A DNA stretch of 27,077 nucleotides. It comes from Treponema sp. Its GTDB lineage: Bacteria > Spirochaetota > Spirochaetia > Treponematales > Breznakiellaceae. Below, piece after piece: positions 1,518-27,076 of the stretch. The stretch covers positions 1 to 27,077 of the forward strand of contig JAISND010000129.1 of NCBI GenBank assembly GCA_031276615.1, written 5' to 3'. A program made the translations under genes and the position numbers. Below the pieces are notes generated by a model. The model searched no databases and was not told the origin of the DNA. It saw only the letters and a list, made by a program, of their open reading frames with translations. Each line of letters opens with the position of its first letter. Within the stretch, counting starts at the first letter, position 1.

Positions 1518-1638
1518 TAGACTTGTTCAATAACCCGGGTGGTGATTTCACAAGTCTTGCAATTTCTCGCCGATGGCTACGAAATTGCGTTATTTTTTGC
1601 GGTTGTTGTTTAAAAACTGAAGTTTTTAAACAACTCTA
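1518..1638. mobile_element. MITE (~120 bp, TA-flanked) nested in IS630
   Basis: Ends tagacttgttcaataac (1518-1534) and gtttttaaacaactcta (1622-1638), 14/17 inverted match; internal IRs gcaatttc/gaaattgc and a 14-bp-arm palindrome at 1605-1634; its removal restores the transposase end ...AYNNIV*. Confidence 0.8.
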
Positions 1639-2704
1639 TTATAAGCCTGCCGTGCTTTGGCAATGGAGGCAAGGATTTTATCAGCCGGCTTGGTCCAGGT
1701 GAAAGTCCGGCCCGACCGGTTCCACCCCTCGATAAAGCTCCGGATAGCCTCAATCAATCGCTTTACCGATTCCCGGCTCTCCCGCCGTATCCGTTTGTTC
1801 GTCAGTTCCCCAAACCACCGTTCTACCATGTTCAGCCACGATGAATGGGTCGGTATGAAATGCAGTACAAACCGTTTTGCCTTCCCCTCAAGATACTTTT
1901 TCGTCTCTTCCGACTTATGCGCGGAGTAATTATCAATGATGATGTGCAGCGCCTTCCCCTGTTCGCATGCGTTGTCCGGTTTTTCAAGAAACCCGATGAA
2001 GTCCTTGCTGTTATGGCTCGCCTTACATTCACCGGTGACATTTCCGGTAAGCATATCCAGCGCCGCAAACAGGGTCGTCGTTCCGTGCCGGCAGTAATCA
2101 GCGCTGTGCCCCGCCGGAACATGCGGCAGAAGCGGTAACAATGGGGCGCTCCGTTCCAGCGCCTGTATTTGCGACTTTTCGTCCACGTACAGAACTATCG
2201 CGTTGTCAGGCGGATTCATATACAGCCCCGCCACATCGGTCAGTTTTTCCCCGAAATGCCGGTCGGTGCTGAACCGGAACTCCTTTTCCGGATGCGGTTT
2301 TATCCCCCGTTCCCGGAGGATAGTGTTGACCGTACTTTTACCCGGCGAAAACCGTTTCGCCAGGGCGCGGGTACTCCAATGGGTCCGTCTTTCGGCTTTT
2401 CCGTGCACGCCGCGGTACAAACCCGGTTTTTTACCGCTTCGCTGACCGGCGGCGTACCGCTTTTACGGGTTTTATCCCGTAAAAGCAATTCCAGGCCGCC
2501 CCGGTTATAGCGGTTGATGAAGGAACTGACGGTCGCCCGGTGTATCCCGACCCCGCAGGCGACCCCGGCCACCGATTTTCCGTTTGCCCTGCGCAACACG
2601 GTTTGCAGCCGTATGGCGTATTTATACATGATATTCCCGGCTGCCAATACTTTTTCCATGAGCGCTTTGTCTTCCGGCACTATGTCCGGCACTACGCTTT
2701 TCAT
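1626..2704 (-). pseudogene. IS630 transposase, frameshifted
   Basis: N-terminal HTH in 2300-2704 and DDE half in 1626-2420 (YVDEKSQ, IIIDNYSAH, WLNMVERWF); KDG|THWSTR junction is one base short at ~2384. Confidence 0.9.
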
Positions 2705-2966: not shown

Positions 2967-4826
2967 ATGAAGAAGAAAAGGATATTTTTCACTGCTCTGC
3001 TGGTTTCGGCTTCCTTTCTCGGCGCGCAGCAATTTAACTCCGTTCCCCTTGATCATGACGCCTATAATGTAATCGACCTTGCGGTCCTCAAGGGTATTGT
3101 CTCGCCCCTGCCTTCGGCAAAGCCCTGGCCGGAATATACAGTCAGGGCAAAGCTCGGGGAAATTCTGGATGATCCCGCCGACACCCTCAGCCCCGCGGAA
3201 TACGCCATTGTATCCAATATCCTTGCCTCCTTTGAACGGAAAGAGGGCCTTGATTTCCGGCGGGGAAGGTATCACAGGGAAAACGCCCTGGGGGGGCACC
3301 GTTTTTCCATTGAGACCGGCGTCAACTGGGACAGCTGCTTTAACGTCAGCGCCCCCGACCCGGCCATCGCAAGCGTCAACATGGGGAAGCTCTATCTTAC
3401 CGGCGATATGGGGGAACACTTTTCATGGAATTTCGATGTCCGGGGAGGTTTCTTCAGCATCGGCAGGGAAGAGACGGGGCGGCGCGAGAACGCGCCCTAT
3501 GTGGATCCCAAATACGGAGAGTACGACGGCAACCCCAACAGCGAAGGCCACACCTATTACTACGATATTCCGGAGCCGGGTACTTCGCCGGTATACGATA
3601 TCCCCGCCTATTTTCCCTACACCTTTACCAAACCCTGGGATGCGGCGGTAATGCCCCCCTCGGATCTGGGGGGCTACCATGAATGGCCGGATGAATTTGC
3701 CTTTGGATACGAGATGATCTCCGAACTGAACGCCAGCCTTTTTGAAAACCGGATGACCCTCCGCTTCGGCAGGATGCGCCGCGACTGGGGCCCCGAATCG
3801 AACGGCACAAGCCTGTTCATGAATTCCCGGGCGCGTCCCTTTATGGCCTTTGAGGGAACCGCCGTCCCCGTAAACTGGCTGCGCTTTTCCTTTCTTACCG
3901 GCGCGCTGGAATACCTCAAGGGCGCGAATCAATGGGAGGACGCCGACCCTTACCAGAATCTTTTTTCCCTCGCCTGTGTGGAATTTGATACGGGAAAACA
4001 TTTTCATTTTGACTTCGGCAGCGCCACCGTCTGGCCCAAGCGCCTTGACCTGGGTTACATCTTCCCCATAAACAGCAACTTCTTTTATCAGAACAACGTA
4101 GGCGACTTTGACAACCTTGCCCTCTTCGCCGACCTGGAACTCAGGTTTCCGGGCATCGCGAAAATTTGGGGTTCCCTCTATGTTGATGAAGTAAACCTAA
4201 GCCACGGCCCCTTCCTTCATCTGGACAGGCAGATGTACGCCTATCAGGGCGGCGTCAAGGCAAATATCCGCTGGCTGCCCTTTGCCTCGCTCACCCTGCG
4301 TTATACCAAAGTTGAACCTTACTGTTATACGCACGAGTATACGGAAACTCCCTGGAACCGGGTTCCGACGGATACCTCCTACCTCAACAACGGCGAATCC
4401 CTTGGCTTCTACCTGCCGCCGAACAGCGACGAATTCCTCATCCGCCTCGATTCGATGATCCTCCCCGAATTAAAGGCGCATATCCAGTATCAGATGATCC
4501 GCCACGGCGTGGAGTACGGTTACGGCAGGGTCGACGGTTCTTCCCTTTACGACAAGATCGTCAAGGACGACGATTCCACCAAGTATTTCCTGATGGACGG
4601 CGTGTACCGGTGGGACAATGTGATTAAACTGGGCGGCTCCTACAGTTTCGGGAACCGCGGCATACCCCTTGCGTTTTACGCGGAAACGGGCCTGGTGATT
4701 ACCCGCTTTACGATTAACGGCAGCGCCGGCATCGGCGAAGAGGGCGATTACGAACCCCTCGACAACGCGGTATACCGGGCGGGTACGGGCTTTATCTTTT
4801 CAATCGGCTTCAGGCTGTACCCTTGA
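2967..4826 (+). CDS. Secreted/outer-membrane protein, capsule-assembly Wzi-like beta-barrel (619 aa)
   Basis: Signal peptide MKKKRIFFTALLVSASFLGA; N-terminal helical part with KPWP; RFGRMRRDWGP..SLFMN..ARPF motif typical of Wzi-family proteins; aromatic-rich alternating strands; C-terminus GFIFSIGFRLYP. Confidence 0.6.
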   Translation: MKKKRIFFTALLVSASFLGAQQFNSVPLDHDAYNVIDLAVLKGIVSPLPSAKPWPEYTVRAKLGEILDDPADTLSPAEYAIVSNILASFERKEGLDFRRGRYHRENALGGHRFSIETGVNWDSCFNVSAPDPAIASVNMGKLYLTGDMGEHFSWNFDVRGGFFSIGREETGRRENAPYVDPKYGEYDGNPNSEGHTYYYDIPEPGTSPVYDIPAYFPYTFTKPWDAAVMPPSDLGGYHEWPDEFAFGYEMISELNASLFENRMTLRFGRMRRDWGPESNGTSLFMNSRARPFMAFEGTAVPVNWLRFSFLTGALEYLKGANQWEDADPYQNLFSLACVEFDTGKHFHFDFGSATVWPKRLDLGYIFPINSNFFYQNNVGDFDNLALFADLELRFPGIAKIWGSLYVDEVNLSHGPFLHLDRQMYAYQGGVKANIRWLPFASLTLRYTKVEPYCYTHEYTETPWNRVPTDTSYLNNGESLGFYLPPNSDEFLIRLDSMILPELKAHIQYQMIRHGVEYGYGRVDGSSLYDKIVKDDDSTKYFLMDGVYRWDNVIKLGGSYSFGNRGIPLAFYAETGLVITRFTINGSAGIGEEGDYEPLDNAVYRAGTGFIFSIGFRLYP

Positions 4827-4838
4827 GGCCCGCGCGGC

Positions 4839-5654
4839 TCAGGGCAGGGGCCAAAGCATACGCCCGCTCAGGCCGACCTTCCCGCCTATGGAGACGCGCT
4901 GAACAGCGCCGCCCCGCCAGGAAACCCGCGTCTCGATAATCCCCCCCGGCTGGCTGACCATACAGGCCGCTTCTCCGTCACCCTGACGCCGGGTTTTCCA
5001 TACCGCCAGCGCGGCGGAACCGGAACCGCAGCTTGATTCAACAACCAGGGAACCGGTGCCATAGACATATACCGCGGGGCGCATACACGCGGCGGAGGTA
5101 TCGTAAAACAAAACCCCCAGGGCCGCGGGCCGGGCAAAGGCCCCCTCAAGTCCGGCCCGGATTCGGGCAAAGGTTTTTTCATCCGGGGGAATATCCGGGG
5201 CAATGACGTGGGTAATGCCGTCAAAAACATAGGCCGGAAGACGGCGCCCCTCAAAATCAAGGGTCTCCGCCGCCAGGGGGCCGGGAACTTCCACTGCCGC
5301 CCATCCCTCCTCTACCCTGACCCTCACCGGAAGCTCTTCCGTCACGCCGCTCATGCCGATTGCAACGGTCTGATCCCCCGAAAGCCCCTCTTCGCGGGCC
5401 ACGAAGAGGCCAAAACTCCGCGCCGCGTTCCCGCAGAATTCGCCGCCCATCATCCGGAGCCGCCACAGCCGCGCCGCGCTGCCGGCCGCGGAACCGCCGG
5501 GGGCCGCCGGTGGAATCACAAAACCCACCTGTTCGGCTTCCAGGCTTCTGTCCGCCAAAAGTTCCCGGGCCGCGGCGGCCCGGTCCGCGACGGGGTTCAG
5601 CACAAAAATCGTGATGTTTTTCGCCGGATCGGCAACAACAATTTCAAAATTCAT
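4839..5654 (-). CDS. PLP-independent racemase/epimerase, DapF fold, CntK/histidine-racemase-like (271 aa)
   Basis: DPAKNITIFV, EQVGFV, MMGGEFCGNA, GVLFYD, ESSCGSG, QPGG; two catalytic Cys motifs. Confidence 0.8.
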   Translation of the reverse strand: MNFEIVVADPAKNITIFVLNPVADRAAAARELLADRSLEAEQVGFVIPPAAPGGSAAGSAARLWRLRMMGGEFCGNAARSFGLFVAREEGLSGDQTVAIGMSGVTEELPVRVRVEEGWAAVEVPGPLAAETLDFEGRRLPAYVFDGITHVIAPDIPPDEKTFARIRAGLEGAFARPAALGVLFYDTSAACMRPAVYVYGTGSLVVESSCGSGSAALAVWKTRRQGDGEAACMVSQPGGIIETRVSWRGGAVQRVSIGGKVGLSGRMLWPLP

Positions 5655-5800
5655 CAGGTTTCAAGTTTACATTGTCCCCGGTTTGAAGTATAGTGAGCTG
5701 ATTTTAAAATTATGGTCCGGGATTATCACAATTTCGGACCCGGCCCGGTTTTTTTTGGAGGTCGGGAAAGGAGCCAAACCTGCCCGGTTTTTCCAATGAA

Positions 5801-5919
5801 ATGAAAAGGATAGCTGCTGTTCTGTTTTGCCTGGCTTTCATGGCGGGAACTGTTTTTTCCGGCGGAAAAAGAACCTTCTCTTCACTCCGCCCTACCTCAA
5901 GAACGCGCAGGTGATCGTG
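5801..5919 (+). pseudogene. Vestige of an amino-acid ABC transporter substrate-binding protein
   Basis: MKRIAAVLFCLAFMAGTVFSGGK (signal peptide, 5801-5869) joined out of frame to KNLLFTPPYLKNAQVIV (5869-5919), a family-3 SBP-like FTxPY motif; the first frame stops at 5914. Confidence 0.6.
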
Positions 5920-5933
5920 GCAAATGAACTTCC

Positions 5934-5985
5934 CCCGCCGAAAGGCGGGTTCTTGGGTACAATTTCACGCCGCTGTATAGCGGCG
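5934..5985. other. Tandem hairpins
   Basis: cccgcc-gaaa-ggcggg (5934-5949) and cgccgct-gtat-agcggcg (5968-5985). Confidence 0.55.
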
Positions 5986-6084
5986 CATATATCCTTCCTC
6001 TAATTGCCGGCCCAAAGGGCTGATTAGACCCCACCGCAATAAGGCGCAATTCGCCGGAACCGATGCGGGCCGCGGGTTCCCGGC

Positions 6085-10413
<4,329 letters not shown>

Positions 10414-18413: not shown

Positions 18414-21173
18414 ATGAAAAAAGAAGGCGGGAAAAAAACAAAAAGGCCGGTCAGGATCGTCATTGCCTTTCTTCCTGTTCTTGCCGGCCTTCCCCTGCTG
18501 TGCGCGGCGCTCTCGCTTTTCGGCCGCGTCGATCCCGGCTCGCTTATCCCCGGTTCCTTCGTCCTGCGCGCGCGAATTCCCGGGCCTCTCCGTCTGGCCG
18601 AGGCCCTGGCAAACCACGGGCCCCTGCCCGAAATTCTGAACATACCGGGCCTTGCCCCCGCGGCGCCTGTCCTGGGCGCGCTCGGAAAACTGCCCTTCAA
18701 AAATCCCGTCCTGCGTTTCGCGGCCCGGGGAGACCTTGAGGCGGCCCTGTTCAGGGACGAAGCTCCGGCCGCGGGGGAACAGGCGGCGCCAGTGTTCATT
18801 GCCGCCTGGGACACGGGTTTCCTTTCCCCCCTGCTCCGTTTTCTGCCCTTTGCCTCAAGGTTTACCGCCATACCCGGGCTGTACGCCGTAAGGGGAAAGG
18901 AAAATTCCCGGCTTGAGTACCGCGCGGGCGGAAAAACCTTTTTTATCGGATACCGGCGGAACCTGCTTGTCCTCTGCGACAATCAGGCGGTTTTTGAATC
19001 GGCGGTCAGGGACGGCGGGGGGTTCCGGGGCGGTACGGGAAAGGCGCCCGGCGCGCCGGGAAACGGCGGCGATTATGACGCCGCGTTTCTGCTTTCCCCC
19101 GCGTATCTCCGCGCCGTCCTCGCGGAGCAGAATCCGGGCATTGCCGCGGTTCTTGAAAATATCGAATTAAACGAAAGCATGGAACTTTATCTTTCCGTCG
19201 CGGAAGAAAAAATCGATCTCCGCCTGGAGACGCGGATTTCTTCCCGCAGCCCCGTCCTGAGCCGGCTTCTTGAAAAACGATCCCCTGTTCCGGGCCTTGC
19301 GGAAATTCTGCCCGCCGCGACCCAGTACGGGACGATCCTTTCCGCGGGAAGCCTGGAAGAACTGTTCGCCGCGGCCGCCCTGTTTCCGGGGGCCGAATTC
19401 GAACCGGCCCTGCGCCGCGCCGGGGCTTCCTCCCGGTTCCTCCTGGGCATGGACATCGAGGAGCTGCTCTATTCCTGGACGGGAAACGAATTTGCCGTTT
19501 TCGCGCTGGAGGGGCGCCCCGCCCAGGTCTACGCGGTTCAAATAGCGGATGAACGGAAACGCCGTCATGTCTTTGACCGGGCATTCAGAACCATGGCGCC
19601 TGACGAAAATATCAGCATGAATCCGGACGGCACAGGAATTCCCCGTATGGAACTTCCCGGCTTTTTAAGGTCCCTGCCCGTCTTTCGGGATTTCCGCGTC
19701 CCCGCGCCCTGTTACACGGTACACGGGGATTACCTTTTTATAAGCGAATCCGCGGAAACGCTTCTCGCCGTGATCCGCTCCGCGCAGAAAAACGAGGTGC
19801 TTCCGAAAACGGCGCTCTGGCGGAATCTGGCGGGAAGCGGCGCGCCTGCCGGGGACAGCCGGGGCAGGTTCCGTTCGGACGGGAGCGCCGCCAGCGTCTT
19901 TTACTCCCTGGACCGGACCCTTCCCTTCTTCCTCCGGGAAAAGACCCTGCTGAGTTCCGTATTGGGAATATACCGGCGGGGCCTTGTCCGGCTTGGTTTT
20001 GAAAACGGCGCCGCCTTTCTCTCCCTCTCTCTGCTTTCCGGAGGCGGCGGCGGGCTTGTTCCCGTGCCCGGTTATCCCCTTGATCTCGCGGGGAATCCGG
20101 GGAACCAGGTATACGCGGCGGCCGGCGGCAGGGCCTCCGAAAACAGAATCCTCTTCTCCAGGGACAATTACGCCGTCGCGCTAAACCCGGGCGACAACAG
20201 CATATACGAATACGAAGGCCAGGGGCCCCTGTGGCTTGTCCCCGCGGCCGGCCTTGACCCAAAGAAGGCCGGGGACGGAACAGCCTGGGCGGTAAGCGTC
20301 CAGGGAAGGGTAAGCCTGTTGAACGGCAATATGGAAGTCCTGCGGGGCTTTCCCCTGCTTACCGGATTGAGGCTTTCCGCCCCTCCCGCCGCGCGGGGGG
20401 GCAGACTTTTCCTCTGCGACGAGGAAGGAAGGGTCTATACGGTTGATACGGACGGCCTCCTCAGCCCCTGGAAAACGGTTTTTCCCGCGGCCCTCCGTTC
20501 CCCCCCTTCCTTCCTTGACACTCCGGCCGAAGACGGGAAGCCGGGGGACAGGGACGCGGGGAAAGGAAAGGCGGGCCGCGTTCCTGACGCGGCGGTTTAC
20601 CCGAAAAGTTTCCTCGGCGAAATCTGGCTGCTTGATTCGGAAGGCGAAGCGCTGCCCGGCTGGCCCGTGCCGGTATCGGGCATCGCCTTCGGATCGGCGG
20701 CGGTCTTTGCGTATAACGGTGAAATCCTCACCGCCTTTGTCACCCAGGCCGGCGAGCTTTCGGTATTTGACGAAGGCGCCGTTTCCTCCGGCCCGTTCCC
20801 CCTGGAACTGGACGGCGTCTTTTTTATCCAGCCTGTTTTTGACGGCGAGTTCCTCTGGCTTGTCTCGGCCGGCGGCGTACTCTTCAGGGTAAGCCTTGAG
20901 GGAGTTGTTCTCCGCCAGTCCATCCCCGGCCTGACCGTAAAAGAAGAAGGCTTCCTCTCCGTCTTTGATTCCGGCGGCGACGGAATCCCCGAAATTTTTA
21001 TTTCCGGGGAAGGAAACGCCCTGTACGCCTGCACGCGGAATTTCGAATCCCTCAGCGGTTTCCCCCTGCCGATCCGGGGCAGGCCGGCCTTCGCCGACTT
21101 CAACGGGGACGGCAGGCCGGAAATAGCGGGCATAGGGATGGACAAAAAACTGTACAGATGGCAGTTCAGGTAG
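18414..21173 (+). CDS. Membrane-anchored hypothetical protein with C-terminal FG-GAP/VCBS-like beta-propeller repeats (919 aa)
   Basis: Basic N-terminus plus a hydrophobic segment; WTGNEFA (DUF3352-like, tentative); repeated GYPL/GFPL/GWPV/GFPL motifs; DSGGDGIPEIF and DFNGDGRPEIAG Ca-binding-type loops. Confidence 0.75.
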   Translation: MKKEGGKKTKRPVRIVIAFLPVLAGLPLLCAALSLFGRVDPGSLIPGSFVLRARIPGPLRLAEALANHGPLPEILNIPGLAPAAPVLGALGKLPFKNPVLRFAARGDLEAALFRDEAPAAGEQAAPVFIAAWDTGFLSPLLRFLPFASRFTAIPGLYAVRGKENSRLEYRAGGKTFFIGYRRNLLVLCDNQAVFESAVRDGGGFRGGTGKAPGAPGNGGDYDAAFLLSPAYLRAVLAEQNPGIAAVLENIELNESMELYLSVAEEKIDLRLETRISSRSPVLSRLLEKRSPVPGLAEILPAATQYGTILSAGSLEELFAAAALFPGAEFEPALRRAGASSRFLLGMDIEELLYSWTGNEFAVFALEGRPAQVYAVQIADERKRRHVFDRAFRTMAPDENISMNPDGTGIPRMELPGFLRSLPVFRDFRVPAPCYTVHGDYLFISESAETLLAVIRSAQKNEVLPKTALWRNLAGSGAPAGDSRGRFRSDGSAASVFYSLDRTLPFFLREKTLLSSVLGIYRRGLVRLGFENGAAFLSLSLLSGGGGGLVPVPGYPLDLAGNPGNQVYAAAGGRASENRILFSRDNYAVALNPGDNSIYEYEGQGPLWLVPAAGLDPKKAGDGTAWAVSVQGRVSLLNGNMEVLRGFPLLTGLRLSAPPAARGGRLFLCDEEGRVYTVDTDGLLSPWKTVFPAALRSPPSFLDTPAEDGKPGDRDAGKGKAGRVPDAAVYPKSFLGEIWLLDSEGEALPGWPVPVSGIAFGSAAVFAYNGEILTAFVTQAGELSVFDEGAVSSGPFPLELDGVFFIQPVFDGEFLWLVSAGGVLFRVSLEGVVLRQSIPGLTVKEEGFLSVFDSGGDGIPEIFISGEGNALYACTRNFESLSGFPLPIRGRPAFADFNGDGRPEIAGIGMDKKLYRWQFR

Positions 21174-21176
21174 GTA

Positions 21177-22325
21177 ATGATGAAAATTCGGCGATTGGGA
21201 ATGCCGGCGGCCGCGGCGGCGCTGTTTGCCGGCCTGCTGCTTTTTTTGCTTCCGGGCTGCCAGTCAATCCGGAAGGATGTTCCCGTCGAAAGTCCCGGGG
21301 AAGAACGGGAACCGGACATGGCGGAACTGGAACGGATGATCGTCGCCCTTGACAGTGAGGGGGAAGCGGCGGCGCGGCGGACAAAGGCGGCCGCCGCGCG
21401 GCTGATGATCGGGGACATGGAAAAGGAAGCCGCCGCGGACGCGGACCTCGAGGCGCGGCTTGCGGCCTGGTCGGGAAGGCTTTCCATTATCGAAGGCCGG
21501 TACAGCGAGGCCGTAAGGCAGCAAAAAATTTCCCGCTCCCTTTCGCCGGGCAATACCCCTTCGATAATTCTGGGTATCCGCCTTGAAGGGGATCCGGCCA
21601 GGCGGCTGGAACTGATTGACCGGGAGATCGGGATTCTGCCTGCCCGGACGCAGCGGGGCGCCGGGGAACTGCAGATTGAACGGGGAAGGGCCCTTTTTGA
21701 ACTTGGCCGTTTCGGCGAGGCGGCCGGCGCCTTTGACGCCGCCTTTGCCTCGGGGCTTGATCCCGTTTACCGGGAAACCTGGCTGTGGACAAGGGACAGG
21801 TCCCGGGAACTGCGAAACGCCGAGGGCTTCGGCGGCAGCATCGGGATTTTCGGGCGCGGCGGCCTGAGCTGGAAGGACTGCATAGGCCTCGCGAAAAACG
21901 AAACCCGGCTGCTGCGCTTCCTTACCGCGGGAAGGGACATGGACGAGGAAGAACTGTTCAACCGTCTCCTCGACCGCTCCTTTATCCCCTACACACAGGA
22001 CATCGGCCTGGACAACTGGCCCCGCGCCAAACCCGGCATCAATGACCCAATCTTCCGCTCCGGGGCGGCGTGGTTTGTCTGGCGCCTTTACGCGGAAGCG
22101 CGCGGAAACCGGGGCATCCTTACGCGCTACTCGGCGCGTTACGCTTCCGGAAGCAGCCCCCGCAGCCCCATAGCGGATCTTCCCCCGCTCTCCCCCTTTT
22201 TCGACTGCATCCTCGGCTGCGTCGAAACCGAATTTATGTCCCTTCCGGACGGCCGGAACTTCAGACCCGCCGAGCCTGTCCGGGGAACGGAAATGCTGGC
22301 CATGCTGAAAAAAGCGGAAAATTAG
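21177..22325 (+). CDS. Lipoprotein with TPR repeats and a C-terminal SLH-like motif (382 aa)
   Basis: Lipobox LLPG-C; TPR-like ERGRALFELGRFGEAAGAFDAA; C-terminal IADLPP...GCVETEFMSLPDGRNFRPAEPVRGTEML; starts 3 nt after the upstream stop. Confidence 0.7.
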   Translation: MMKIRRLGMPAAAAALFAGLLLFLLPGCQSIRKDVPVESPGEEREPDMAELERMIVALDSEGEAAARRTKAAAARLMIGDMEKEAAADADLEARLAAWSGRLSIIEGRYSEAVRQQKISRSLSPGNTPSIILGIRLEGDPARRLELIDREIGILPARTQRGAGELQIERGRALFELGRFGEAAGAFDAAFASGLDPVYRETWLWTRDRSRELRNAEGFGGSIGIFGRGGLSWKDCIGLAKNETRLLRFLTAGRDMDEEELFNRLLDRSFIPYTQDIGLDNWPRAKPGINDPIFRSGAAWFVWRLYAEARGNRGILTRYSARYASGSSPRSPIADLPPLSPFFDCILGCVETEFMSLPDGRNFRPAEPVRGTEMLAMLKKAEN

Positions 22326-25991: not shown

Positions 25992-26474
25992 TCAGGCCTG
26001 TTTGTAAATTTGATCAATGCTGGCTTCCTTGACAAGGAGAACGGAGCACTTGGCGCTCACCATGATTTCCCGGTGCGCGTGGGATATTATGTCACGGGCG
26101 CTGCGATCCTTCTCCCAGCCCCCAAGAACGATAAGATCGGCTTTTTTCTCGTCGGCCGCCGTAAGAATTTCCGTGTAAACGGCGCCTTTGCGTATCTCCC
26201 TTTCTATTTTGACGCCCTTGGCCCTGGCAAGTTCCTCCACAAAGGAAAGATAGCGCTCGCCGTTGGCCTCAAGGCTCTTTTCGTACTCGGTGCTTTCTTC
26301 CTGGATGAATATCTTGCTTAAAGTCAACTGTCTGATGGTGGCGATATCCACAACATAGACCGCCGTAAGTTTGCAATGGTACGTTTTGGCCATAACGATG
26401 GCGTACTTTGCCGCAAGAATGGACGCGTCCGAGCCGGTAATTACCGCAACAATGTTGGAGATAAGGGGTTTCAT
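25992..26474 (-). CDS. Universal stress protein (USP domain, 160 aa)
   Basis: NIVAVITGSDAS..A, LTAVYVVD, G....EIL..A....ADLIVLG, CSVLLVK. Confidence 0.9.
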   Translation of the reverse strand: MKPLISNIVAVITGSDASILAAKYAIVMAKTYHCKLTAVYVVDIATIRQLTLSKIFIQEESTEYEKSLEANGERYLSFVEELARAKGVKIEREIRKGAVYTEILTAADEKKADLIVLGGWEKDRSARDIISHAHREIMVSAKCSVLLVKEASIDQIYKQA

Positions 26475-27076
26475 AGTTCTCTGCCGGCCTTCCTTTTCAA
26501 AAGTTTACTGGTGAAGAAGGAATCCCTGTCCCTTTCTTCAAGCGCCGCCTCAATATACGCTTTTGTGTCCCGCGCGGCGGGAATAACCACCTTTTCCAGG
26601 GCGTTTACCCTGCGCTGGGTTTTGCGAACTTCCCTGGCAAGGCGCCAGGCGATGGTACGTACCGCCGCAAGTTCGGTACATATTTTCAGCATTTCGAAGA
26701 ATTCTAGCACGGTTTCATCACATTCCGCAAATGAATTTGCCGGGGAATATTTCAATTCCGCGGCCGGGAGCCGGATTTCCAGGCCCGGAAGTTTCATTCC
26801 GGCGGCGCTTACCTGCTTTTCCCGCAGCTCAAAACGGTAGCGGATGTTCCGGGAAAGCCGTTCCGCCCTCTCCCGGCCAACCACGATGAGCATCCGCTTG
26901 AGGGCGGGATAGGCGGTACCCATCCTTGCAAGCAGATCGCGTTCCAGGAGTTTTACCTGCTCCACCTTCCGCATCAGCTCCATGACAAGAATCTCCCGTT
27001 TCTGCTCAAGGAGATCGTAGCCTTCCCCGGCCGTGGCAAGCCGCTCCTTTACGCGAAGAAGGTTGCTCTTGGTGGG
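26471..27076 (-). CDS. atpD: V-type ATP synthase subunit D (5' partial)
   Basis: Upstream of the ORF-track start the frame reads PTKSNLLRVKERLATAGEGYDLLEQKREILVMEL; C-terminal KTQRRVNALEKVVIP...LEERDRDSF; overlaps the USP start by 4 nt. Confidence 0.93.
   Translation of the reverse strand, partial: PTKSNLLRVKERLATAGEGYDLLEQKREILVMELMRKVEQVKLLERDLLARMGTAYPALKRMLIVVGRERAERLSRNIRYRFELREKQVSAAGMKLPGLEIRLPAAELKYSPANSFAECDETVLEFFEMLKICTELAAVRTIAWRLAREVRKTQRRVNALEKVVIPAARDTKAYIEAALEERDRDSFFTSKLLKRKAGREL

What the first reader, a model, noticed from the sequence alone, without database searches (positions are those of the whole stretch)
4839..5654. Orphan histidine-racemase-like enzyme outside any metallophore operon
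Seen: DPAKNITIFV / EQVGF / GGEFCGNA / ESSCGSG / QPGG, lacking the MHGxGNDF start of true DapF. Known: this motif series matches staphylopine CntK and Fusobacterium histidine racemase, recalled from memory. No CntL/CntM-like genes are in the window. Inference: this spirochaete may make or consume a D-amino acid such as D-His for an uncharacterised purpose (peptidoglycan editing, catabolism, metal chelation).
Basis: partly seen in the sequence, partly recalled or inferred. Interest (0 to 1): 0.65.

Follow-up and report, generated by a model that had tools for sequence, protein, structure and literature searches.

The report
Orphan histidine-racemase-like gene in Treponema
This termite-gut spirochaete gene encodes an intact enzyme of the same family as the two known cofactor-free histidine racemases, not the lysine-pathway enzyme DapF it is usually labelled as; it is an ordinary new member of that family, and it sits beside the wreck of an amino-acid uptake gene.

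Summary

Sequence profiles, a confident AlphaFold model and fold search all place it with the two proven histidine racemases, HisR (Fusobacterium) and CntK (Staphylococcus), and far from DapF. The catalytic cysteine pair (C74, C209) and the proposed histidine contacts (N13, E41, E72, E206) are conserved. DapF's distal-carboxylate elements are missing.

No CntL or CntM homologue was found in this genome or in four relatives. Four of five Firmicutes genomes with a family member also carry a true DapF.

The family is large (termite-gut Treponema plus many gut Clostridia), and Pfam 38.1 already names it CntK_N. It scores far below the HisR and CntK equivalog cut-offs.

New here:
- The gene is not primarily an orphan. 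The 430-bp gap to rpoC holds a decayed relic of a basic-amino-acid ABC binding protein that is intact next to the racemase in sister lineages.
- Other relatives pair the racemase with a D-aminoacylase-like hydrolase or with hutU/hutI.

Best reading: a two-thiol histidine racemase used for D/L-histidine interconversion, probably salvage.

Side puzzle: this Treponema family has a DapL lysine pathway but no recognisable DapF.

The parts
4839..5654 (-). Intact 271-aa HisR/CntK-family (Pfam CntK_N) cofactor-independent racemase gene; catalytic C74 and C209; N13, E41, Q42, E72, N76, E206, S211 conserved
   Evidence: pairwise dN/dS 0.14-0.31 against five Treponema orthologues
5701..5729 (-). Sigma-70-like promoter match (GTGATA-17-TAAAAT, 9 of 12) about 47 bp upstream of the racemase ATG; weak evidence only
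   Evidence: 3 sites found against 0.7 expected in shuffles; no Rfam element in 4700-6200
5801..5872 (+). Relic of the partner family-3 solute-binding-protein gene: signal peptide, residues 1-24 (MKRIAAVLFCLAFMAGTVFSGGKR)
   Evidence: tblastn with the orthologous SBPs of relatives: 58% identity to L054, E 4e-7; sequence read
5863..5943 (+). Second piece of the same relic in another frame: SBP residues ~115-141 (RKKNLLFTPPYLKNAQVIV...). Residues ~25-114, everything after ~141, and the permease and ATPase genes are gone
   Evidence: 70% identity to L054 SBP, E 1.3e-9, with eight further SBP orthologues matching the same fragment
6085..10413 (-). rpoC, the conserved upstream neighbour on the same strand; the racemase lies downstream of rpoC in many Treponema relatives
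2967..4826 (+). 619-aa secreted/outer-membrane-like protein with no family hit, converging on the racemase with a 12-bp gap. It is context only: it is a neighbour of the rpoC region in relatives, but in a different arrangement
   Evidence: 89% identical copy beside the racemase in G001 and a 36% copy just after rpoC in L036

Best explanation
The gene encodes a cofactor-independent, two-base amino-acid racemase of the HisR/CntK family. It has two DapF-like alpha/beta domains that close over the substrate. The Cys74 thiolate removes the alpha-proton from one face and the Cys209 thiol reprotonates from the other, and the roles swap for the reverse direction. The alpha-amino group would be held by N13 and E206. 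The alpha-carboxylate would be held by the backbone amides of G75-N76 and G210-S211. The imidazole would be held by the acidic residues E72, E206 and E41. Its most likely substrate is histidine (L-His <-> D-His).

It is not part of a staphylopine-type metallophore pathway and it is not the canonical DAP epimerase. In the ancestor of this lineage it sat back-to-back with a basic-amino-acid ABC importer downstream of rpoC. In this genome that importer has decayed to a relic while the racemase stayed intact and constrained. The most likely physiological role is interconversion of D- and L-histidine for salvage, turning imported or hydrolytically released D-His into usable L-His.

What is shown: the fold, family placement, residues, gene contexts and the relic. 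What is inferred: the substrate, and above all the direction of flux and the physiological role.
For: Family placement: a profile of 22 family members scores 201.5 bits on HisR, 194 on CntK and only 27.8 on the best DapF. P0001 alone gives NCBIfam HisR 107.9, CntK 86.1 and DapF 22.5 bits. The AF2 model has pLDDT 95 and pTM 0.92. Foldseek ranks CntK 6jis (1.1e-21) and HisR 9cr6 (4.4e-21, TM 0.78-0.81) first, with DapFs at 3e-13 or worse and TM 0.6-0.7. Pfam 38.1 PF26317 CntK_N is precomputed on it and on all listed homologues.

Residues: N13, E72, N76, E206 and C209 are invariant, and E41, Q42, C74, G75 and S211 are at least 90% conserved across the family. These are the positions proposed to bind histidine in HisR and CntK (PMC11602996). 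HisR turned over only His, plus very slowly lanthionine, among 35 compounds.

Not DapF: the N-x-D-G-S loop, GNPH and E-R-G-x-G-E-T are absent. 4 of 5 Firmicutes genomes with a family member also have a true DapF at 277-314 bits.

Histidine or basic-amino-acid links in relatives:
- hutI-hutU / regulator / racemase in Faecalispora and Ca. Fimivivens.
- A CntK-like paralogue next to hutU on G026 C111.
- An SBP3-permease-ATPase cassette adjacent in at least 7 Treponema loci, in both divergent and convergent arrangements, and independently in 3 Lachnospiraceae loci.
- That SBP's nearest solved structures bind Arg, His, Lys or Orn.
- A D-aminoacylase / N-acyl-D-Glu deacylase-like hydrolase directly upstream on the same strand in 5 Treponema loci.

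Constraint: dN/dS 0.14-0.31.
Against: No assay exists, so the substrate is inferred from roughly 28% identical enzymes. The protein scores far below both equivalog cut-offs, so it is a separate branch that could have a different specificity.

I could not put HisR and CntK themselves into the tree (no sequence reference), so I do not know whether they bracket this clade.

The role is weakly supported. The family makes its own histidine (hisD in 30 of 36 genomes) and lacks Hut, and D-His is not known to be abundant in the termite gut.

The partner SBP orthologue also occurs in 11 genomes of the family that lack the racemase. Within Treponema the adjacency may therefore be one inherited insertion beside a pre-existing cassette rather than functional coupling.

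Contexts are heterogeneous: PBP1A downstream in 4 loci, and MatE, GH20, peptidase M29 or FTHFS elsewhere. In this genome the importer is gone, so any coupling to it no longer operates.
Confidence: 0.6

Rival explanations
1. It is the organism's DAP epimerase: a HisR-type enzyme recruited to convert LL-DAP to meso-DAP for the DapL lysine pathway, as JGI and UniRef annotation and a 2014 review assume.
For: The genome has dapL (487 bits against a 364.7 cut-off), asd, a lysA-like gene and dapA on contig C292, but no TIGR00652 DapF. The same holds for 0 of 36 genomes of the family, including two closed ones. In closed G033 (= L. azotonutricia) this is the only DapF-fold gene found, and PMC4176475 states that dapF lies 'in another location' there. 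Its distribution does not overlap with that of a second, faint DapF-like ORF in the family. HisR has slow activity on the DAP analogue LL-lanthionine. In one MAG (L064) the gene is 2 kb from dapA.
Against: All DapF distal-site elements are missing. The gene is present in only 10 of 36 genomes of the family. At least four genomes that are 90% or more complete (G007, G013, G025, G027) have DapL but neither DapF-like gene, and no Ddh was found in the one of them searched (G007). So the family has another, unidentified solution. 4 of 5 Firmicutes carriers also have a true DapF. No dap or lys gene lies next to the racemase in the 80 loci searched, apart from the dapA fragment 2 kb away in L064.
Confidence: 0.08
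2. It is a racemase of the same fold and mechanism but for another substrate, for example another basic amino acid (Lys, Orn, Arg) or a D-amino-acid derivative.
For: It scores far below the HisR and CntK equivalog cut-offs. The acidic pocket (E41, E72, E206) would suit any cationic side chain. The linked SBP is nearest to Arg-, Lys/Orn- and His-binding proteins, with L-Arg-bound Tv2483 as the top fold hit. Treponema peptidoglycan contains ornithine (my own knowledge). The neighbouring D-aminoacylase-like hydrolase is not histidine-specific.
Against: HisR has the same three glutamates and did not turn over Lys, Arg or any other of the 20 proteinogenic amino acids. The pocket motifs are nearly identical to those of HisR. 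hut-gene contexts in two branches point to histidine.
Confidence: 0.2
3. It is a histidine racemase, but it works in the producing direction: it makes D-His for cell-wall editing or for an unknown D-His-containing metabolite or metal-related function.
For: A class A PBP (transglycosylase plus transpeptidase) lies directly downstream on the same strand in 4 Treponema loci. A ZnuA/ZnuC/ZnuB-type metal importer follows the gene in G033 and G026. CntK is a producer, and the HisR knock-out was not rescued by D-His.
Against: The PBP and Znu contexts are each confined to one small subclade, and in G033 a transposase-like gene and another ORF intervene. No CntL/NAS or CntM was found. More contexts involve uptake, deacylation, peptidases or Hut.
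Confidence: 0.1
4. It is a leftover on its way to decay: after loss of the partner importer the gene no longer has a function in this genome.
For: The adjacent cassette is reduced to a roughly 140-bp relic. An IS630-like element lies 2 kb away. The family distribution is patchy.
Against: The ORF is full-length with every catalytic and conserved residue intact. dN/dS is 0.14-0.31. The same-genus genome G001 keeps the gene in the same racemase-OMP619 arrangement, and no SBP remnant was found beside it there.
Confidence: 0.03

Closest known systems
HisR (FN1732) of Fusobacterium nucleatum, PDB 9CR1/9CR6 (Lamer et al. 2024, PMC11602996)
   Same: Same two-domain fold (TM 0.78-0.81). Same Cys pair in the same motifs (MMGGEFCGNA; E-x-S-C-x-S-G). 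Same proposed substrate contacts (N18/E49/E65/E206 correspond to N13/E41/E72/E206). It is also mis-annotated as DapF, also lies outside any metallophore cluster, and also has an unknown physiological role.
   Different: About 28% identity. 107.9 bits against the 400-bit equivalog cut-off. Different neighbours: HisR sits by V-ATPase and pabABC genes, whereas this gene sits after rpoC beside a decayed amino-acid importer. It has an extra low-confidence loop at residues ~48-62.
CntK of Staphylococcus aureus, PDB 6JIS/6JIW (staphylopine pathway)
   Same: Same fold (top Foldseek hit, E 1.1e-21), same catalytic pair and same glutamates. The Pfam family CntK_N covers both proteins.
   Different: 22-23% identity. 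86.1 bits against the 300-bit cut-off. No cntL, cntM or Opp-type cnt importer nearby, and none found in the genomes searched.
DapF, diaminopimelate epimerase (TIGR00652, PF01678)
   Same: Same superfamily fold and the same two-cysteine, cofactor-free mechanism. Shares N13, the C-G-N motif, the H of GxxH, E206 and the C-G-x-G motif. Public annotation calls the gene DapF.
   Different: 22.5 bits against the 114.65 cut-off. It lacks the N-x-D-G-S loop, the Asn of GNPH and the Arg-containing E-R-G-x-G-E-T segment that hold the distal end of DAP (the roles of these residues are from my knowledge of the DapF-aziDAP structures). It coexists with true DapF in Firmicutes.

Membership tests
HisR/CntK cofactor-independent histidine racemases (Pfam PF26317 CntK_N) | Two-domain DapF-like alpha/beta fold that is closer to HisR/CntK than to DapF | tested here: met
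   AF2 pLDDT 95. Foldseek: CntK and HisR at E ~1e-21, DapF at 3e-13 or worse.
HisR/CntK cofactor-independent histidine racemases (Pfam PF26317 CntK_N) | Catalytic cysteine pair in G-G-E-F-C-G-N-A and E-x-S-C-(G/A)-S-G | tested here: met
   C74 and C209.
HisR/CntK cofactor-independent histidine racemases (Pfam PF26317 CntK_N) | Proposed histidine contacts: Asn18, Glu49, Glu65, Glu206 (HisR numbering) | tested here: met
   N13, E41, E72 and E206 are invariant or at least 90% conserved in the family. The roles come from PMC11602996, and there they are proposals, not proven.
HisR/CntK cofactor-independent histidine racemases (Pfam PF26317 CntK_N) | Hit to the family's Pfam model | tested here: met
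   PF26317 is precomputed on P0001 and on all listed homologues and is named CntK_N in the atlas. The model is not in the local library, so I could not rerun it.
HisR/CntK cofactor-independent histidine racemases (Pfam PF26317 CntK_N) | Racemisation of histidine, specific for histidine | not testable with these tools
   This needs an enzyme assay.
NCBIfam NF052224 HisR (Fusobacterium equivalog) | Score at or above the 400-bit curated cut-off | tested here: not met
   107.9 bits. It is not an equivalog member.
NCBIfam NF033599 CntK (staphylopine equivalog) | Score at or above the 300-bit cut-off, and location in a cntKLM-type cluster | tested here: not met
   86.1 bits. No NAS/CntL (PF03059) or CntM (PF10100) in G000, G033, G026, G012 or G034. 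The CntM model rang in no control genome, so that negative is weak.
DapF diaminopimelate epimerase (TIGR00652) | Score at or above the 114.65-bit cut-off | tested here: not met
   22.5 bits. It is not detected as DapF in the genome search.
DapF diaminopimelate epimerase (TIGR00652) | Distal-site elements that bind the far end of DAP: the Asn in N-x-D-G-S, the Asn of GNPH, and Arg after the conserved Glu | tested here: not met
   In the alignment with five true DapFs the loop is deleted, GNPH becomes GITH, and E-R becomes E-S with a 6-residue deletion.
DapF diaminopimelate epimerase (TIGR00652) | LL-DAP / meso-DAP epimerase activity | not testable with these tools
   This needs an assay or dapF complementation. 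The missing-DapF context keeps this possibility alive at low probability.

The most novel reading that the evidence does not exclude
The HisR-type enzyme is the otherwise missing LL-DAP epimerase of the DapL lysine pathway in those termite-gut treponemes that carry it. It would then be a DAP epimerase that works without any of DapF's distal-site residues, recruited from a histidine-racemase scaffold, which already shows trace activity on the DAP analogue lanthionine.
Probability: 0.07. Interest if true: 0.6.

Novelty: new member of a known kind. Interest (0 to 1): 0.35.

Why it matters
Only two cofactor-independent histidine racemases have been characterised. One of them, HisR, has no known physiological role, and the authors left the other clusters in their similarity network uninterpreted.

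This gene belongs to a very large, mostly mis-annotated ('diaminopimelate epimerase') branch found in termite-gut Treponema and in many human and animal gut Clostridia. The recurrent partners seen here are a basic-amino-acid ABC importer, a D-aminoacylase-like hydrolase, and hutU/hutI. They give a testable idea for what orphan histidine racemases are for, namely salvage or catabolism of D-histidine.

Correcting the DapF label also exposes a real gap. Termite-gut Treponema have a complete DapL lysine pathway but no recognisable epimerase, contrary to what a 2014 review assumed.

For this window alone the finding is ordinary: one more member of a family that Pfam already recognises.

Tried and rejected
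2. PF26317 is not in the local Pfam copy, so I rely on the precomputed hits.
3. I could not bring the HisR and CntK sequences into a tree. The tree therefore has DapF as its only outgroup, and placement relative to HisR and CntK rests on profile and fold scores.
4. The CntM search (PF10100) rang in no control genome, so it is a weak negative.
5. Staphylopine-like metallophore role: rejected, because no CntL or CntM was found.
6. Hut-type histidine catabolism in this organism: rejected, because hutU was found in 1 of 36 genomes of the family, and there on a small contig of a MAG with 6% contamination.
7. Histidine auxotrophy as the reason for salvage: rejected, because hisD is present.
8. A Ddh bypass of DapF: found only in G029 among the five genomes searched.
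9. The G032-type 313-aa DapF-like ORF as a universal cryptic DapF: rejected, because it is in only 8 of 36 genomes.
10. Strict co-occurrence of the partner SBP with the racemase: rejected, because the SBP orthologue also occurs in 11 genomes without the racemase.
11. No Rfam element was found in the intergenic region.
12. A literature search for Hollandina plus racemase found nothing useful.
13. Apparent SBP hits inside racemase genes came from one mis-called long ORF (L068) and were ignored.

Full report
THE OBSERVATION

Window 4839-5654 (minus strand) is a clean 271-aa ORF starting with ATG. It lacks the K-M-H-G-I-G-N-D-Y start seen in true DapFs.

The resemblance to histidine racemases is far beyond chance:
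- NCBIfam HisR: E 6.8e-31, 107.9 bits.
- NCBIfam CntK: E 2.6e-24, 86.1 bits.
- NCBIfam DapF: E 6.5e-5, 22.5 bits (all).
- PDB HisR 9cr6/9cr1: E 7.6e-20. PDB CntK 6jis: E 9e-14.

All three NCBIfam scores are below the curated equivalog cut-offs (400, 300 and 114.65 bits). The protein is therefore a relative of HisR and CntK, not an equivalog of either.

WHAT IT IS

A profile built from 22 diverse family members scores 201.5 bits on HisR, 194 on CntK and only 27.8 on the best DapF.

An AlphaFold2 model from the same alignment is confident (pLDDT 95, pTM 0.92). The only weak stretch is a variable loop at about residues 48-62. Foldseek against the PDB ranks CntK (1.1e-21) and HisR (4.4e-21, TM 0.78-0.81, 28% identity) first. 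DapF structures follow at E 3e-13 or worse with TM 0.6-0.7.

Across the family, N13, E72, N76, E206 and C209 are invariant. E41, Q42, C74, G75 and S211 are at least 90% conserved. These are the catalytic cysteines and the residues proposed to hold histidine in HisR (Asn18, Glu49, Glu65, Glu206) and in CntK (Glu46, Glu208) (PMC11602996).

I also aligned the protein with five bona fide DapFs. The family lacks the N-x-D-G-S loop before the first cysteine. It has GITH in place of GNPH. It has E-S-S-C in place of E-R-G-x-G-E-T-x-x-C. From my knowledge of the DapF-aziDAP structures, these are the elements that bind the distal end of DAP.

Pfam 38.1 already files the protein under PF26317 'CntK_N'. 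One NCBI record for a homologue (Hollandina sp. SP2) is already named 'putative histidine racemase'. JGI and UniRef call family members 'diaminopimelate epimerase', and NCBI mostly calls them 'hypothetical'.

DISTRIBUTION

The family is large:
- 1707 clusters at 50% identity match at E 1e-3 or better, and 127 at E 1e-30 or better.
- The closest members (50-78% identity) are termite-gut Treponema / Spirochaetia MAGs, T. primitia ZAS-2 and Leadbettera (Treponema) azotonutricia.
- At 33-48% identity come many gut Clostridia: Intestinibacter bartlettii, Blautia, Oscillospiraceae, Aminipila, Moryella and Faecalispora.

In a quick maximum-likelihood tree all 30 spirochaete sequences form one clade (SH-aLRT 100). 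That clade sits among the Clostridia sequences, and DapF is separated by a very long branch. This fits a single acquisition, but I did not test a donor or a direction.

Within the window's own family the gene is patchy. It is in 10 of 36 other genomes, and in none of 24 genomes from other families of the order.

SURROUNDINGS IN THE WINDOW

The gene lies 430 bp downstream of rpoC on the same strand, at the end of the nusG-rplK-rplA-rplJ-rplL-rpoB-rpoC block. It converges, with a 12-bp gap, on a 619-aa protein that matches no family. An IS630-like element lies 2 kb away. No CntL- or CntM-like gene is in the window.

The position downstream of rpoC recurs in many Treponema relatives. In those relatives a three-gene polar-amino-acid ABC importer (family-3 binding protein, permease, ATPase) usually lies between rpoC and the racemase, transcribed divergently from it.

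- 5801-5872 (+) encodes the signal peptide, residues 1-24.
- 5863-5943 (+), in a different frame, encodes residues ~115-141 (70% identity, E 1.3e-9).
- The rest of that gene, the permease and the ATPase are gone.

No close orthologue of the cassette was found elsewhere in this genome, but the genome is only 59% complete. The sister sequence in the tree (L036, 76% identity) still has the intact cassette. So the 'orphan' state is secondary.

The racemase itself looks constrained: pairwise dN/dS is 0.14-0.31.

WHAT THE CONTEXTS SAY

I clustered the neighbours of the racemase across 80 loci.

In Treponema:
- The importer cassette lies beside the racemase in at least 7 loci. It occurs in both divergent and convergent arrangements (L057, L003).
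- A 462-aa amidohydrolase lies directly upstream on the same strand in 5 loci. Its nearest solved relatives are N-acyl-D-glutamate deacylase and D-aminoacylases (E 1e-39 to 2e-37).
- DUF4912 upstream and a class A PBP downstream occur in 4 loci.

In Clostridia:
- A family-3 binding protein lies directly upstream on the same strand in 3 Lachnospiraceae loci. This is an independent recurrence of the pairing.
- Other neighbours are MatE, GH20, an unknown 227-aa protein and a Na:alanine-family symporter in Blautia; peptidase M29; and FTHFS.
- In Faecalispora jeddahensis and Ca. Fimivivens the order is hutI-hutU (both over cut-off), a large regulator, then the racemase.

A second, CntK-like paralogue in G026 lies next to a hutU fragment. 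That contig is small and the MAG has 6% contamination.

The Treponema binding protein's nearest solved structures bind L-arginine (Tv2483), histidine (4OHN, 38% identity), Arg (ArgBP), Lys/Orn/Arg (TTC0807) or Arg/Lys/His (ArtJ).

Taken together, the partners are mostly about uptake, release or breakdown of amino acids, with several pointers to histidine or basic amino acids.

One caution applies. The binding-protein orthologue also occurs in 11 genomes of the family that lack the racemase. Within Treponema the adjacency could therefore be one inherited event.

RIVALS

Metallophore role. No NAS/CntL and no CntM was found in this genome or in G033, G026, G012 or G034. The CntM negative is weak, because the model rang in no control genome. 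Znu-type metal importer genes follow the racemase in only two genomes, and in one of them other genes intervene.

DapF. This rival deserved a real test. The genome has a DapL-type lysine pathway: dapL at 487 bits, plus asd, a lysA-like gene and dapA on contig C292, and the six-gene cluster in L. azotonutricia. That pathway makes LL-DAP and so needs an epimerase. Yet no genome of the family has a DapF above the cut-off (0 of 36). A 2014 review counted a 'dapF elsewhere' in T. azotonutricium (PMC4176475). That is most likely this gene, because it is the only DapF-fold gene I found in that closed genome.

Against the DapF reading:
- The distal-site elements are absent.
- Only 10 of 36 genomes carry the gene.
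- G007, G013, G025 and G027 are all at least 90% complete and have DapL over the cut-off, yet they have neither this gene nor the second faint DapF-like ORF. No Ddh was found in G007, the only one of the four searched for it.
- Four of five Firmicutes carriers also have a true DapF at 277-314 bits.
- No dap or lys gene lies next to the racemase in the 80 loci searched, apart from a dapA fragment 2 kb away in L064.

I put this rival at about 8%.

Another substrate of the same mechanism remains possible at about 20%, because the protein is a separate branch well below the equivalog cut-offs. However, HisR has the same acidic pocket and rejected Lys, Arg and all other proteinogenic amino acids.

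MECHANISM AND ROLE

Shown: the fold, the cysteine pair, the conserved pocket, the family placement, the gene contexts and the relic.

Inferred: a two-base 1,1-proton transfer between Cys74 and Cys209 on histidine. The physiological direction is inferred more weakly still. I favour D/L-histidine interconversion for salvage, because the commonest partners are importers, a D-aminoacylase-like hydrolase, peptidases and hut genes.

That role is uncertain. The organism makes histidine (hisD) and lacks Hut, and here the importer is lost.

VERDICT

This is a real, intact, constrained gene and a new member of the HisR/CntK (CntK_N) family. It is commonly mis-annotated as DapF.

It is not categorically new, because orphan histidine racemases are already described and Pfam covers this protein.

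The added value is threefold:
- the decayed importer next door;
- the recurrent partners that suggest a role for orphan histidine racemases;
- the exposure of an unassigned epimerase step in the lysine pathway of termite-gut treponemes.

Noticed in passing
G000 contig C292 (L024:1-4668); L025 (G033:C1:1094000-1106000): This Treponema family has a full DapL lysine cluster (lysC-dapB-dapA-asd-lysA-dapL), but no DapF above the cut-off in 0 of 36 genomes. At least four genomes that are 90% or more complete have DapL and no DapF-fold gene of any kind, and no Ddh was found in the one of them searched (G007). The LL-DAP epimerase step is unassigned.
   Followed up: partly
L027:733-1674 (-) = G032:C1:1080215-1081153: A 313-aa ORF next to ddl has only a faint DapF-like N-terminus (PF01678 16 bits; PDB DapF E ~4e-4). 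It is present in 8 genomes of the family, and none of those carries the P0001-type racemase. It could be a cryptic epimerase or racemase linked to the cell wall.
   Followed up: partly
window 1626-2704 (-): An IS630-like element: an HTH ORF (2300-2704) overlapping a DDE_3 transposase ORF (1626-2420) in another frame. It is either frameshifted or broken. It lies beside the rearranged rpoC-downstream region.
   Followed up: no
window 2967-4826 (+): A 619-aa protein with a signal-peptide-like start and no Pfam or NCBIfam hit. It is 89% identical in the same-genus genome G001 and 36% identical in L036, where it directly follows rpoC. It looks like a clade-specific outer-membrane-like protein of unknown function.
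   Followed up: no
L013:13936-17906 (+) and L015:5635-9682 (-): In L. azotonutricia (G033) and G026 the racemase is followed on the same strand by a conserved 460-467-aa protein with no family hit, and then by ZnuA/ZnuC/ZnuB-type metal-uptake genes. G000 has the Znu genes on another contig (C288).
   Followed up: partly
L012 (G026:C111:1-3161): A second, CntK-like paralogue (179.6 bits on CntK, 36% identity to P0001) lies directly upstream of a hutU fragment on a 3-kb contig. The MAG has 6% contamination, so the contig may be foreign.
   Followed up: partly
window 18414-22325 (+): A G+C-rich stretch (0.60-0.63 against about 0.56 elsewhere) encodes a 919-aa protein with one weak FG-GAP repeat hit and a 382-aa protein with no hit.
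   Followed up: no
window 26474-27076 (-): A V-type ATPase subunit D gene lies at the window edge. In F. nucleatum, hisR sits directly after V-ATPase subunit D. Here the two are 21 kb apart, so this is probably coincidence.
   Followed up: no
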